Part shown: piece after piece, positions 18,553-25,596 of the stretch
Position numbering within the stretch: the first letter of the stretch is position 1
Layout of the letters: every line of letters begins with the position of its first letter
IMG/VR virus record: IMGVR_UViG_3300009111_000003
Length of the DNA: 61,596 nucleotides
Reading direction: 5' to 3' (one strand)
DNA from: a virus
Notes under the pieces: generated by a model
Seen by the model: only the letters and a program-made list of their open reading frames with translations
The model's database searches: none
What the model was told of the DNA's origin: nothing
Translations under genes and position numbers: made by a program

Positions 18553-18979
18553 GAAATGGTTCGTCTCACGCCAGCGATACTGGCCGGATGGGACAACCGT
18601 GGTCGAGGTCGCCTTCGGTGGGCTTGACTACGCCAATCCGGACATGCTCGTACCTCGCTATGAGAATCTCGGCGAGGCGTTCGAGTACGACAACGCCTAC
18701 GATGCTGTGAAGGCAGCAATCCGTGTCCGCGAGATGTGGAGGGGTGATGTGGGCGAAGAGGGTGGCGCATCAGAGATCCAGATAGCCATCGGTTGCACGA
18801 TGGGATTTACGCTGCCCTTCGAACCTGACGGCAGGAACGATGAGGCTATCCTTGAGTGGGCACAGAAGCGCGACTCCATTGCGCGTGATGCAGAAGACGC
18901 TGACAGCGAGGAACTGGAAGCCGCCAGCGAGATGCTCAACGGATGGGACGCATGGGACGTGAAGATCTGGGGTGGTTAG
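18545..18979 (+). CDS. Hypothetical protein (144 aa)
   Basis: ORF track. Confidence 0.6.
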   Translation: MPEKWFVSRQRYWPDGTTVVEVAFGGLDYANPDMLVPRYENLGEAFEYDNAYDAVKAAIRVREMWRGDVGEEGGASEIQIAIGCTMGFTLPFEPDGRNDEAILEWAQKRDSIARDAEDADSEELEAASEMLNGWDAWDVKIWGG

Positions 18980-18991
18980 TCGCGAAAAGTG

Positions 18992-19044
18992 TTGACAACG
19001 ACTCTTCTGTGTGCTACGCTTGTTGTGTGGTAAAGCGGCAGGCG
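18992..19044 (+). promoter_or_regulatory. Early promoter cassette with GGCAGGCG box
   Basis: TTGACA 18992, TACGCT 19015, box 19037-19044. The upstream element is tagtcgcgaaaagt. Confidence 0.7.
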
Positions 19045-19059
19045 AAAGGGGTGTATCCA

Positions 19060-19302
19060 GTGACGCAGGGCATATTCGTCAAGGGCAGGCGTCCCGCAAC
19101 GAAGAAGCAAATCAAGGAGCAGGTCGCTGAAGATCCGTCGCGCGTCTCTCTCGAGGCGACTAGCATGTTCGGCAATGAGTACGACGGTCCCGTGACCGAG
19201 GCTCCCGACGGCACCTACACGTTCGTCGGTCCCGACCCGTACAACAAGCGGACGTTCTACGGCAACATCAAGAAGGCAGGCGAGACGATCCGCGTGACGT
19301 AG
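19060..19302 (+). CDS. Hypothetical protein (80 aa)
   Basis: GTG 19060 follows SD aaagggg. The track start 18943 lies upstream of the promoter. Confidence 0.55.
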   Translation: MTQGIFVKGRRPATKKQIKEQVAEDPSRVSLEATSMFGNEYDGPVTEAPDGTYTFVGPDPYNKRTFYGNIKKAGETIRVT

Positions 19303-19309
19303 GCGATAC

Positions 19310-19349
19310 GCGGGGTCGGGGGCTTTCTACCCTTCTCTCCCGACCCCGC
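19310..19349 (+). terminator. Hairpin terminator candidate
   Basis: 11-bp stem gcggggtcggg / cccgaccccgc with an 18-nt loop. Confidence 0.5.
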
Positions 19350-19368: not shown

Positions 19369-19420
19369 TTGACAAGCCGAGTTCCGTGTGCTATGCTTGC
19401 CGTAGGCAAGGCAGGCAACC
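19369..19420 (+). promoter_or_regulatory. Early promoter cassette with GGCAGGCAACC box
   Basis: TTGACA 19369, TATGCT 19392, box 19410-19420. Confidence 0.7.
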
Positions 19421-19733
19421 GAACTTTGACAATCGTAAAGGGTTCACCATCTCGTCAAACCGACCCCACGGTAACGCGGAAAGCCAGTCGTCCCTGTCAC
19501 TTCGCACCGCCTCTACTTCCAGCCATGGATGCGAAGCACGCATACGGACGGAGTTTCACACGAATCCTGAGCCGTGGAGTAAAATGGGTTTCGCCTGCAA
19601 CCGATCGCGGGCAAGCCCTCCTGAGCGTTGCAACGCAAGGGTTTCTCGAGTGGGTGCTCCCGTCGGGATGGAGCATGGACGGGGTGGTGAATCCTTTACG
19701 GTTGTCAGGGTTCAGAGAAGGGTGGTGAGCAAG
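19421..19733 (+). promoter_or_regulatory. Long structured 5' leader / candidate cis-regulatory RNA
   Basis: It is about 310 nt between the promoter and the SD of the next CDS. The segment 19427-19448 (tgacaatcgtaaagggttcacc) pairs fully, with two G-U wobbles, with 19686-19707 (ggtgaatcctttacggttgtca). Internal hairpins include cccgtc/gacggg and gcgttgcaacgc. Confidence 0.55.
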
Positions 19734-20165
19734 GTGAGGATCGACCTCGAACGACTGGGCAAGTACCCCGATGGGTGCAACACCTATCCGTCGGGCATGT
19801 CCACTCGCGTAAACGAGATCGAGCGTGCTGGCAAGGAAGTCGCACTTGACAATCCTTCGCAGTACGCTCGTGACGTTGCGAACCGTGAGTGGTACGACAA
19901 GGTGGAAGCCGCCTACAAGGTCATCTCGCAGGACGTGAACGGGAACGGCGGTTTGGCTCTTGCTCGTATATTCGCAGACGAGCACCCCGAACTCCAGCAC
20001 ATGACGCTCGATGCGTTGCGTGCTGGCATGCTCCTCCGTCACCCCGAACTCCTCAAGTACATGGACGGCAAGATAGACGCGATCCGTCGGTCACACATTG
20101 ACGGGCGCGTCCGTGTGCGTGACGCAGAGTTCGTAGTGCAGCGCGACATCCGTTGGGAGGACTGA
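19734..20165 (+). CDS. Hypothetical protein (143 aa)
   Basis: GTG 19734 lies 8 nt after SD gaagggtgg, the same spacing as at 16804. The track extension upstream is leader sequence. Confidence 0.6.
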   Translation: MRIDLERLGKYPDGCNTYPSGMSTRVNEIERAGKEVALDNPSQYARDVANREWYDKVEAAYKVISQDVNGNGGLALARIFADEHPELQHMTLDALRAGMLLRHPELLKYMDGKIDAIRRSHIDGRVRVRDAEFVVQRDIRWED

Positions 20166-25410: not shown

Positions 25411-25452
25411 CAAAGAGTTTCTGTTGTGCTATGCTGACCGTGGCTGGCAACC
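25407..25452 (+). promoter_or_regulatory. Promoter cassette with box variant GGCTGGCAACC
   Basis: TTGACA 25407, TATGCT 25430, box 25442-25452. Confidence 0.7.
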
Positions 25453-25596
25453 CATTAGAGTTCCGGGTAAAGCGGGGTTACGCTCCCTGCCTCCGAGGTT
25501 GCCTGCCGCACGAGGTTGAGCGACCCGCTTTAGGGAAAGTGGGTCGGAGTGGAGCCACCCTTCCTCCGACCCCCTTCCCGACCATTTGGAGGGGAC
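25453..25596 (+). promoter_or_regulatory. Structured 5' leader containing the exact complement of the consensus leader box
   Basis: ggttgcctgcc at 25497-25507 is the reverse complement of ggcaggcaacc. There is a helix taaagcggg (25468) / cccgcttta (25524) and a hairpin gggtcggag/ctccgaccc (25541-25572). Confidence 0.5.

What the first reader, a model, noticed from the sequence alone, without database searches (positions are those of the whole stretch)
19421..19733. About 310-nt structured leader closed by a 22-bp long-range helix upstream of an unknown early gene
Promoter 19369 is followed by about 310 nt before the SD and GTG at 19734; other cassettes have 15-40 nt. The segment 19427-19448 (TGACAATCGTAAAGGGTTCACC) is fully complementary, with two G-U wobbles, to 19686-19707 (GGTGAATCCTTTACGGTTGTCA). 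Together they enclose about 237 nt of GC-rich sequence with further candidate helices: cccacgg/ccgtgg, cccgtc/gacggg, atgcg/cgcat and the palindrome gcgttgcaacgc. The 3' arm ends about 10 nt before the SD. The overlapping track ORFs start inside the promoter and are not credible. The region could be a riboswitch-like or protein-binding leader, a stable phage ncRNA, or a small inserted element flanked by inverted repeats.
Basis: partly seen in the sequence, partly recalled or inferred. Interest (0 to 1): 0.66.

Follow-up and report, generated by a model that had tools for sequence, protein, structure and literature searches.

The report
Helix-closed RNA module in phage leader
The long leader of this early phage gene holds a real, conserved folded RNA closed by a 36-base-pair helix; it belongs to a previously undescribed family in a small group of uncultured phages and is most likely cut out of the mRNA by the host enzyme RNase III.

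Summary
The closing helix is 36 bp (19421-19456 with 19678-19713): 30 Watson-Crick pairs plus 6 G·U pairs, and no mismatches. It sits between a leader motif shared by the early transcripts (GGCAGGCAAC) and the Shine-Dalgarno sequence of a 143-aa gene that starts at GTG 19734.

I found eight further elements of the same design in seven other contig lineages of related uncultured phages. In six lineages they lie upstream of homologues of this gene. In the seventh lineage two stand in tandem before a different gene.

- **Helix:** 19 of 26 aligned pairs show compensatory changes. Non-canonical pairs are mostly G·U on the sense strand.
- **Invariant box:** the 5' strand begins with TTGACA in 8 of 9 elements.
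- **Interior:** it ranges from about 70 to 385 nt and is not coding. It has conserved loops and covarying hairpins only within subfamilies.
- **Databases:** no Rfam family matches.

Best reading (about 0.45): an RNase III processing module in the leader, with an expandable apical domain. It resembles phage T7 and lambda N-leader sites and the intervening sequences of 23S rRNA.

Rivals are a trans-acting excised RNA, a protein-bound regulator, and a DNA-level insertion or inversion switch. It is a new variant of a known kind and moderately interesting.

The parts
19310..19349 (+). Terminator-like GC-rich hairpin (arms 19310-19320 and 19339-19349) that ends the upstream gene 18943-19302. It has no U tract.
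   Evidence: I3: 11 bp, 100% complementary.
19369..19397 (+). Early sigma-70-type promoter: TTGACA, 17-nt spacer, TG-extended TATGCT. The transcription start is inferred near 19403-19405.
   Evidence: The same promoter type precedes nine cassettes in the window. Equivalent promoters stand before the homologous leaders in L001, L003, L006, L010, L012 and L013.
19405..19420 (+). Leader motif GGCAA-GGCAGGCAAC-C, shared by the early transcripts. It abuts the 5' strand of the closing helix.
   Evidence: One search shows the motif 7-15 nt after the -10 box of most early promoters. GGCAGGCR occurs 25 times against 3.8 expected.
19421..19456 (+). P1, 5' strand of the 36-bp closing helix. It carries the invariant box TTGACA (19426-19431) and a second conserved box AAAGG (19437-19441; AUAGG in most relatives) about one helical turn further in.
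19457..19464 (+). Junction motif AAACCGAC, conserved in the window, L006, L012 and L014. CCGAC is complementary to GUCGG in the loop of the 3' hairpin, so a pseudoknot is possible. Both are invariant, so this is untested.
19466..19577 (+). Domain closed by P2, CCACGG (19466-19471) with CCGUGG (19572-19577). It is followed by the conserved single-stranded GUAAAA (19579-19584).
   Evidence: The minimum-energy fold is. The helix covaries: UCUCGG/CCGAGA in L006 and UUCGG/CCGAA in L012 (sequences).
19586..19618 (+). Hairpin GGGUUUCGCCUGC...GCGGGCAAGCCC. It is specific to the window. L006 and L012 carry a larger insert at this position.
19620..19642 (+). Hairpin CCUGAGCGU-UGCA-ACGCAAGG, preceded by CCCUCC (19616-19621).
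   Evidence: One search shows compensatory changes in L012 (GAGUG/CACUC) and L006 (CCAUAGUG/CACUAUGG).
19654..19676 (+). 3' hairpin: stem GCUCC/GGAGC with the conserved 9-nt loop CGUCGGGAU (19661-19669).
   Evidence: The U-A pair becomes C-G in L012. The loop is conserved in L006 and L012.
19678..19713 (+). P1, 3' strand of the closing helix. It ends with UGUCAGGGUUC.
19717..19736 (+). Shine-Dalgarno sequence GAAGGGUGGUGAG (19717-19729) and start codon GTG 19734. The Shine-Dalgarno sequence begins 4 nt after P1 and is unpaired in the predicted fold.
   Evidence: The start codon lies 14-24 nt after P1 in every relative.
19734..20165 (+). Downstream early gene of 143 aa. The protein is all-alpha and of unknown function. 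It is conserved in the same phage group.
   Evidence: homologues; no Pfam or PHROG family; model with pLDDT 82 and no structural match.

Best explanation
The leader of the early gene at 19734 carries a self-contained folded RNA module. The module is inserted exactly between the standard leader motif (GGCAGGCAAC) and the Shine-Dalgarno sequence. Its defining, selected part is a long closing duplex, 36 bp here and 25-36 bp in relatives. Two sequence boxes in the duplex are conserved about one helical turn apart: UUGACA/UGYCAR at the base and AUAGG/CCUAU. The apical domain is expandable, about 70-385 nt in the family and 221 nt in four or five helices here.

Shown: the structure exists, it is on the sense strand, it is conserved by compensatory evolution, and it is not coding.

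Inferred: a near-perfect duplex longer than two helical turns in a bacterial transcript is a substrate for host RNase III. The module would therefore be cut out of the primary transcript. That would separate the triphosphate 5' end and the leader motif from the mRNA. The mRNA would keep a short monophosphate leader that begins inside the 3' strand of P1, a few nucleotides before a free Shine-Dalgarno sequence. This cut would set the stability or translation, and so the timing, of this early gene, as RNase III sites do in phage T7 early mRNAs and the lambda N leader. The excised apical domain may be a tolerated expansion, or it may have gained a role of its own.
For: Helix in the window:
- It has 36 pairs (30 Watson-Crick, 6 G·U). 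The fold gives z = -5.4 on the plus strand and -2.2 on the minus strand.

Family:
- The same layout (promoter, GGCAGGC motif, helix beginning TTGACA, helix ending TGYCARGG, 14-24 nt, start codon) occurs in L001, L002/L003, L006, L012, L013 and L014, upstream of homologues of the 143-aa gene with 40-56% identity.
- It also occurs twice in tandem in L010, before a different gene.

Covariation across the nine elements:
- 93.2% of cells are paired, against 31-45% when the partner strand is slid by 1-3 columns.
- 19 of 26 pairs show changes on both sides.
- 0 of 500 shuffles reach the observed values.

Strand:
- There are 19-21 G·U cells against 6 A·C cells. Four of the A·C cells are at one conserved position.
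- The z-score is more negative on the plus strand in all nine elements.

The helix is the constant part:
- The interior varies from about 70 nt (L013) to about 385 nt (L012). The window type and the L001 type share no detectable sequence.
- Every helix nevertheless stays at 25 bp or more. That exceeds what is needed merely to close a domain and also exceeds the two turns RNase III needs (established knowledge).

Position:
- Other early leaders run from the motif to the Shine-Dalgarno sequence within a few nucleotides, so the helix is an insert in a standard leader.

Precedent:
- The 428-444-nt intervening sequence of Coxiella 23S rRNA is closed by a 28-bp stem. [quoted passage not shown]
Against: - There are no RNA-end data. 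Cleavage is an inference from helix length, and the host and its RNase III specificity are unknown.
- A plain processing site does not explain why the 5' strand keeps TTGACA in 8 of 9 elements while the partner strand drifts. That drift leaves an A·C mismatch in four lineages, which shows a sequence constraint beyond pairing.
- In the window/L006/L012 subfamily the interior has conserved loops (CGUCGGGAU, GUAAAA, AAACCGAC) and covarying hairpins. The L001/L003 pair has invariant blocks of 27-36 nt. Both suggest the interior also has a function.
- The Shine-Dalgarno sequence is not sequestered, so the regulatory gain from cleavage is not obvious.
- The alignment used for the covariation count was anchored on the pairing itself, so it leans towards the structure. 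The slid-partner controls address this only partly.
Confidence: 0.45

Rival explanations
1. The functional product is the excised RNA. On this reading the module is a gene for a stable, trans-acting phage ncRNA, for example one used in host takeover, anti-defence or factor titration. It would ride in an early leader, with the long helix serving only as its processing stalk, as the leader-trailer helices do for rRNA.
For: - The interior of the window, L006 and L012 keeps conserved unpaired motifs and at least three covarying helices, although the flanking protein is only about 50% identical.
- L001 and L003 share perfectly conserved blocks of 27-36 nt between variable, indel-rich stretches.
- Two different elements stand in tandem in one leader before an unrelated gene in L010. 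This fits RNA genes better than a gene-specific regulator.
Against: - The interiors of the subfamilies share no detectable sequence. They shrink to about 70-100 nt in L013 and L014.
- What is conserved family-wide is the stem and its place next to the Shine-Dalgarno sequence.
- No known ncRNA family matches.
Confidence: 0.2
2. The module is an uncleaved cis-regulatory structure bound by a protein, either a phage protein, a host protein or RNA polymerase/sigma. The factor would read the two conserved boxes on one face of the helix, or the UUGACA strand before the helix closes. It would control translation or transcript elongation of the downstream gene. Autoregulation by the 143-aa protein is one version.
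For: - The two conserved boxes in P1 lie about 10-11 bp apart (columns 3-8 and 14-18).
- The 5' strand keeps TTGACA even where that leaves a mismatch.
- The element is associated with the 143-aa gene in seven lineages.
- Closing the helix places the leader motif and the Shine-Dalgarno sequence side by side, as in the short leaders.
Against: - L010 carries the elements before a different gene.
- The 143-aa protein has no recognisable RNA-binding fold or family.
- A long, near-perfect duplex would have to be shielded from RNase III.
- No -10-like element follows the TTGACA at promoter spacing (direct reading).
Confidence: 0.15
3. The feature acts at the DNA level. It would be either a decayed miniature inverted-repeat transposable element or an invertible DNA switch, flanked by inverted repeats and located between the promoter and the gene.
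For: - The module looks inserted into a standard leader, and the terminal 8 bp are conserved (CCTTGACA...TGYCAAGG).
- It occurs in tandem in L010 and before two different genes.
- Inverted repeats around 100-450 bp in a 5' UTR match the layout of known inversion switches (own knowledge: Clostridioides difficile cwpV and flgB).
Against: - There are no target-site duplications, and the complementarity runs 4-6 bp beyond the conserved box into covarying flanks.
- The window has only one copy.
- The arms differ almost completely between lineages, yet each pair stays complementary. Independent decay of transposon ends would not do this.
- Non-canonical pairs are biased to G·U on the transcribed strand.
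- Internal hairpins also covary.
- Every duplicate copy recovered has the same orientation: the window, L004 and L005, and L002 and L003.
- No recombinase, transposase or reverse transcriptase was found among about 50 ORFs scanned against Pfam or PHROGs. That scan was not exhaustive.
Confidence: 0.07
4. The region is translated, either as an N-terminal extension of the gene (ORF 19386-20165, 259 aa) or as the 119-aa ORF 19369-19728.
For: - Two of the three plus-strand frames are open across the leader.
- Public gene callers extended the gene to 165-193 aa.
Against: - All six homologues checked begin at the conserved N-terminus, preceded by a Shine-Dalgarno sequence. Each has an in-frame stop 4-38 codons upstream.
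- L001 and L003 differ by frame-breaking indels of 1 and 2 nt inside the element.
- The ORFs would start inside or right after the promoter.
Confidence: 0.02

Closest known systems
RNase III processing sites in phage early mRNAs (T7 R0.3-R1.3; the lambda N leader). Recalled from established literature, not tested here.
   Same: Both are double-stranded RNA structures in early transcripts made by host RNA polymerase. Both lie just upstream of a gene's ribosome-binding site. In the known cases, host RNase III cleavage changes the stability or translation of the mRNA.
   Different: The known sites are local hairpins of about 40-80 nt with an internal loop. Here a long-range helix of 25-36 bp encloses 70-385 nt of further structure. 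It also carries a conserved UUGACA box. Cleavage has not been shown.
Intervening sequences of 23S rRNA (Coxiella, Salmonella, Leptospira; PMC4990558)
   Same: Both are inserts of some hundred nucleotides closed by a near-perfect stem of about 28 bp formed by their own ends. Their size and content vary between lineages. In the known cases RNase III excises the insert from the middle of the stem without re-ligation.
   Different: The known inserts sit in rRNA helices 25 or 45, not in an mRNA leader, and some encode the S23p protein. No sequence relationship is evident.
Leader-trailer helices of rRNA operons (PMC10250234)
   Same: Both show the order promoter, short conserved leader box, then a long-range helix that encloses a structured RNA. 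In rRNA operons the helix is the RNase III site.
   Different: The rRNA helices enclose a 1.5-2.9-kb rRNA, and the boxA/boxB sequences are unrelated to GGCAGGCAAC.
6S RNA (mimic of open promoter DNA)
   Same: Both are largely double-stranded RNAs. Here the duplex begins with the exact -35 hexamer and opens into unpaired RNA about 24-31 bp later, near where a promoter melts.
   Different: There is no Rfam 6S match. There is no -10-like element. The polarity relative to the closing stem is opposite to that of E. coli 6S RNA (own knowledge), and a branched interior replaces a bubble followed by a second stem.
Riboswitches and large ornate ncRNAs (ROOL, GOLLD and others)
   Same: Both are multi-helix RNAs closed by a P1 helix, located in a 5' UTR or in a phage genome, with covariation.
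   Different: No Rfam family matches. The core is not conserved across the family, P1 is far too stable to switch, and there is no expression platform.

Membership tests
Any Rfam 15 family (including riboswitches, 6S, group I/II introns, ROOL, GOLLD, tmRNA, RNase P, Y RNA) | Covariance-model score at or above the family's gathering threshold | tested here: not met
   the whole window gives 0 hits; at E<=10 the region gives only chance hits well below threshold. L001, L003, L006, L010, L012, L013 and L014 give 0 hits (E<=1, E<=0.1); no tRNA or tmRNA.
RNase III substrate | Continuous double-stranded RNA of about two helical turns (>=20-22 bp) on the transcribed strand | tested here: met
   The window has 36 bp with no mismatch. 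All nine elements have 25-36 bp. Transcription from the 19369 promoter is inferred.
RNase III substrate | Staggered double-strand cleavage by RNase III in vivo or in vitro | not testable with these tools
   This needs end-mapping in wild-type and rnc hosts, or an in vitro assay.
Riboswitch | A ligand-binding core conserved across members, plus an expression platform with mutually exclusive pairings (terminator/antiterminator or Shine-Dalgarno sequestration) | tested here: not met
   The interior is not conserved between subfamilies. No U tract follows P1, and the Shine-Dalgarno sequence is unpaired. P1 contributes a duplex of about -60 kcal/mol.
MITE or IS-derived element | Terminal inverted repeats bounded by target-site duplications, with several similar copies in the genome | tested here: not met
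   The window has a single copy. By direct reading the flanks are not duplicated; they continue the helix instead. The arms differ between lineages while staying complementary.
Invertible DNA switch (inverton) | Both orientations present in populations, and a cognate recombinase | tested here: inconclusive
   All recovered duplicate copies have one orientation. No recombinase was found among about 50 ORFs scanned. Raw reads were not available.
Retron ncRNA (msr-msd) | A reverse transcriptase gene adjacent to an RNA closed by an inverted repeat | tested here: not met
   The downstream gene has no Pfam or PHROG family and no structural match. No reverse transcriptase was seen in the scanned ORFs.
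Type I toxin mRNA with 5'-3' fold-back (hok-like) | A conserved small ORF enclosed by the long-range helix | tested here: not met
   No ORF is conserved. There are frame-breaking indels between L001 and L003, and the stop-free stretches differ by frame and lineage.
Group I intron | The P3-P8 catalytic core, with splice sites in a coding or RNA gene | tested here: not met
   There is no match to any group I intron model in Rfam at permissive E-values. The element lies in a 5' UTR and is closed by a 36-bp helix, which is not a group I feature.

The most novel reading that the evidence does not exclude
The module is not merely a processing site. It would be a new class of phage RNA whose duplex imitates promoter DNA. 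The duplex has an exact, strand-specifically conserved -35 hexamer (UUGACA) at the base of a helix of about 24-31 bp, which then opens into unpaired RNA. Once made early in infection and released from the leader, this RNA would bind host sigma-70 holoenzyme, in the manner of 6S RNA, or another host factor. The expandable interior would tune that activity.
Probability: 0.1. Interest if true: 0.85.

Novelty: new variant of a known kind. Interest (0 to 1): 0.55.

Why it matters
The result adds an undescribed, covariation-supported RNA family to phage early-gene control. It was found in nine elements from eight contig lineages and matches no Rfam model.

Its architecture is unusual. A long, sequence-boxed duplex is the constant part, and the apical domain ranges from about 70 to 385 nt. 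If RNase III excision is confirmed, this would be an mRNA-leader counterpart of the rRNA intervening sequences. It would also be a natural case of how a processing hairpin can grow a complex RNA domain.

The practical point is immediate. Public gene calls for the downstream gene are over-extended into this RNA (165-193 aa instead of 143 aa).

The strand-specific conservation of the -35 hexamer inside an RNA helix is unexplained and can be tested directly.

Tried and rejected
**Searches that found nothing**
- DNA similarity to 50,697 GenBank phages, near and distant modes.
- IMG/VR scans with the 143-aa protein, the SNF2 protein, a back-translated FADEHPELQHM motif, two conserved L001 RNA blocks and the 3' hairpin.
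- Two scans of the JGI metagenome contigs. Those samples are not in that collection.
- One GTDB genome scan with the 3' hairpin.

**Limits of the protein searches**
- The word-indexed protein search found only two homologues of the 143-aa protein.
- The full HMMER search and the neighbour-gene route through SNF2 were what recovered the family.

**Negative results on related sequences**
- The most distant homologue, P0139 (L016), lies in a different context and has no element.
- Arthrobacter phage Wollypog is the nearest cultured relative, with 35% identity in the primase-helicase and a syntenic replication module. It has neither the element nor the leader motif.

**Readings considered and rejected**
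- A second promoter at the internal TTGACA: no -10 box follows at 15-19 nt in any lineage.
- An intrinsic terminator: there is no U tract.
- Shine-Dalgarno sequestration: the sequence is unpaired.
- Protein coding.
- An IS3-like TG...CA element: the helix extends beyond those ends.
- Group I or II intron, retron, and hok-like mRNA (see the membership tests).

**Not done or uninformative**
- Structure prediction of the downstream protein gave no functional lead.
- A covariance model of the whole element was not built.

Full report
**The observation**

The window is a complete-looking siphovirus-type genome of 61.6 kb.
- The structural genes lie on the minus strand: major head protein, portal, large terminase and tape measure.
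- A long plus-strand early and replication arm carries SNF2 helicase, a PD-(D/E)XK nuclease, AAA_24, a primase-MCM helicase, a DnaE-type polymerase and ThyX.
- It has no DNA match among GenBank phages.
- By primase-helicase, its nearest cultured relatives are Arthrobacter, Microbacterium and Streptomyces phages at 35% identity.

At the finding, the promoter is TTGACA 19369-19374, a 17-nt spacer, then the TG-extended TATGCT 19392-19397. About 330 nt follow before GTG 19734.

The reported 22-nt complementarity is exact. It is part of a longer helix in which 19421-19456 pairs with 19678-19713 over 36 positions. These are 30 Watson-Crick and 6 G·U pairs, with no mismatch. All six G·U pairs would be A·C mismatches on the other strand.

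The sense strand folds at -139.9 kcal/mol with z = -5.4. The antisense strand gives z = -2.2.

**Context within the genome**

Nine plus-strand promoters of the same type (TTGACA, 17 nt, TAyGCT or TACAGT) stand in the early arm. In most of them the motif GGCAGGCAAC(C), or a close variant, follows 7-15 nt after the -10 box. A few nucleotides later come a long Shine-Dalgarno sequence and the start codon. GGCAGGCR occurs 25 times in the window, against 3.8 expected.

The 19369 cassette reads GGCAAGGCAGGCAACC, then the helix-closed module, then AGAGAAGGGTGGTGAGCAAGGTG. The 293-nt module therefore sits as an insert inside an otherwise standard leader, between the motif and the Shine-Dalgarno sequence.

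**Relatives**

The downstream 143-aa protein has no Pfam or PHROG family. An AlphaFold model (pLDDT 82, all-alpha) matches nothing in PDB or BFVD.

Homologues were recovered in three ways: a word-indexed search, neighbour-gene look-ups through the SNF2 helicase, and a full HMMER scan of 1.84 billion representatives.

| Lineage | Loci | Identity to the 143-aa protein or note |
|---|---|---|
| Window | L004, L005 | Leader 100% identical to the window |
| L001 | L001 | 56% |
| L002/L003 | L002, L003 | 55% |
| L006 | L006 | 51% (BLASTP) |
| L012 | L012 | 48% |
| L013 | L013 | 49% |
| L014/L015 | L014, L015 | 40% |

Every lineage has the same layout: promoter (not visible in L014, which is cut off), GGCAGG motif, a long helix whose 5' strand begins (C)CTTGACA, a 3' strand ending TGYCARGG, and then 14-24 nt to the start codon.

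L010 is a related phage whose SNF2 protein is 56% identical. One of its leaders carries two such elements in tandem. The arms are 710-734 with 937-961, and 970-998 with 1239-1267. They precede a different gene.

Two sequences lack the element: a very distant 97-aa homologue in another context (L016), and Arthrobacter phage Wollypog.

**Is the helix real and is it RNA?**

I aligned the lower 26 positions of both arms of the nine elements, anchored on TTGACA. The counts come:
- 93.2% of the 234 cells form standard pairs, against 31-45% when the 3' partner is slid by 1-3 columns.
- 19 of 26 pairs have changes on both sides.
- None of 500 shuffles reaches any observed measure.

The alignment was anchored by the pairing, so it leans towards the structure. 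The arms are nevertheless almost entirely different in sequence between lineages, and each pair remains complementary.

Inverted repeats in DNA would covary in the same way, so strand evidence matters:
- Non-Watson-Crick cells include 19-21 G·U against 6 A·C. Four of the A·C cells are at one conserved position.
- The shuffle-normalised folding z-score is more negative for the sense strand in all nine elements.
- Local hairpins inside the element also covary (and below).

Coding is excluded. Homologues have in-frame stops 4-38 codons upstream of their starts. L001 and L003 differ by frame-breaking indels of 1 and 2 nt. The window's open frame (ORF 19386-20165) is therefore a coincidence. The public gene calls of 165-193 aa are over-extensions.

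**Anatomy**

Two things are constant across the family.
- The duplex is always 25-36 bp long.
- Two boxes within it are conserved: UUGACA/UGYCAR at positions 3-8 and A-U-A-G-G/CCUAU at positions 14-18, about one turn apart.

The 5' strand keeps TTGACA in 8 of 9 elements (TTGATA in L013). The partner strand varies, which leaves an A·C mismatch in L001, L003, L006 and L010b. This is a sequence constraint beyond pairing, and I cannot explain it. No -10-like hexamer follows at promoter spacing in any lineage, by direct reading.

The interior is not constant. Approximate sizes are given below.

| Element | Interior length |
|---|---|
| L013 | about 70 nt |
| L014 | about 100 nt |
| L010a | 202 nt |
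| Window | 221 nt |
| L010b | 240 nt |
| L006 | about 300 nt |
| L001, L003 | 375 nt |
| L012 | about 385 nt |

The window type and the L001 type share no detectable sequence.

Constraint is clear within subfamilies. The window, L006 and L012 share these features:
- AAmCCGAC directly after P1.
- A covarying P2: CCACGG/CCGUGG in the window, UCUCGG/CCGAGA in L006, and UUCGG/CCGAA in L012.
- The conserved single-stranded motif GUAAAA.
- A covarying hairpin at 19620-19642.
- A 3' hairpin with the conserved loop CGUCGGGAU. Its GUCGG could pair with the CCGAC after P1. Both are invariant, so this is untested.

L001 and L003 are 85% identical. Perfectly conserved blocks of 27-36 nt alternate with scrambled, indel-rich stretches, and eight predicted pairs are compensatory.

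**Mechanism**

The conserved, selected feature is a near-perfect duplex longer than two helical turns, placed 3-8 nt before a free Shine-Dalgarno sequence. By established knowledge of bacterial RNA metabolism, such a duplex is a substrate of RNase III.

A close structural precedent is the 428-444-nt intervening sequence of Coxiella 23S rRNA. It is closed by a 28-bp stem. [quoted passage not shown] Phage T7 early mRNAs and the lambda N leader are functional precedents for RNase III sites just upstream of early genes (own knowledge).

I therefore think the module is most likely cut out of the leader. That cut would detach the triphosphate end and the GGCAGGCAAC motif, leaving an mRNA with a short monophosphate leader. 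The apical domain would be an expansion that may have acquired its own role. I put this at about 0.45, because no RNA-end data exist and the TTGACA constraint and the interior conservation are not explained by it.

The rivals are:
- The excised RNA is the functional product (0.2).
- An uncleaved, protein-bound regulator (0.15).
- A DNA-level insertion or inversion switch (0.07). It is disfavoured by the absence of target duplications, the single copy, the strand-biased wobbles, the covarying internal hairpins, the uniform orientation, and the lack of any recombinase among about 50 ORFs scanned.
- Translation (0.02).

**Comparison with known families**

No Rfam 15 family matches the window or any relative, and there is no tRNA or tmRNA. 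The element works most like an RNase III processing stalk or an rRNA intervening sequence, but membership cannot be claimed without cleavage data.

It fails the defining features of riboswitches, MITEs, retrons, hok-like mRNAs and group I introns, as listed in the membership tests.

I rate it a new variant of a known kind: a previously undescribed structured-RNA family with an unusual combination of parts (a boxed long duplex plus an expandable domain) in the early leaders of a small, uncultured phage group related to actinobacteriophages.

Noticed in passing
window 15658, 16772, 19037, 19410, 20869, 22648, 26781 and others; also L006, L010, L011, L012, L013, L014: The motif GGCAGGCR occurs 25 times in the window, against 3.8 expected. 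It lies 7-15 nt after the -10 box of most early promoters and a few nt before the Shine-Dalgarno sequence. It is also present in the leaders of the related phages. It may be a family-wide leader or start-associated signal, comparable in idea to the start-associated sequences of cluster K mycobacteriophages (own knowledge). Its function is unknown.
   Followed up: partly
window 19426-19431 and the equivalent positions in L001, L003, L006, L010 (two elements), L012, L014: The 5' strand of the closing helix keeps the exact -35 hexamer TTGACA in 8 of 9 elements. The partner strand drifts, which leaves an A·C mismatch in four lineages. This sequence constraint beyond base pairing is unexplained.
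   Followed up: partly
L010 660-1285: One leader carries two different helix-closed elements in tandem. The helices are 25 bp and 29 bp, with interiors of 202 and 240 nt. Each is preceded by a GGCAAC motif. They lie upstream of an unrelated small gene with a CxxC motif, which probably starts at GTG 1284.
   Followed up: partly
window 25440-25552: In the 25407 leader the motif itself (GGCUGGCAACC) pairs with GGUUGCCUGCC about 45 nt downstream, forming a 12-bp hairpin. A second 11-bp hairpin follows before the Shine-Dalgarno sequence (z = -2.7).
   Followed up: partly
window 10560-12100: This region looks non-coding. It holds copies of AAAAAAGCGTAGGCA in direct and inverted orientation (10596-10621, 10818-10843, 10865-10889). 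It also holds a 26-bp inverted repeat, 11187-11212 with 11896-11921, that begins with TTGACA, contains GGCAGGCAGGCA and encloses ORF 11254-11886. It may be an origin or a regulatory region.
   Followed up: no
window 15202, 16736, 18992, 26744: Several early promoters share an upstream element, AGTCrCGAAA, placed 5 nt before the -35 hexamer.
   Followed up: no
window 19322-19338 versus 19714-19730: The loop of the terminator-like hairpin upstream of the promoter is 82% complementary over 17 nt to the Shine-Dalgarno region of the 19734 gene. This would matter only in read-through transcripts.
   Followed up: no
window 19386-20165; proteins P0001, P0003, P0004: Public gene predictions for the 143-aa gene run 165-193 aa, because two reading frames happen to be open across the structured leader. 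Homologues show that the true start is GTG 19734.
   Followed up: yes
L018 (Arthrobacter phage Wollypog, MW055913.1): Its replication module is syntenic with the window's: helicase, RecB-like nuclease, AAA_24/RecA-like protein, primase-helicase, oxidoreductase, DnaE, ThyX and resolvase. This suggests an actinobacterial or related host. In Wollypog the DnaE gene is split by an HNH endonuclease gene.
   Followed up: partly
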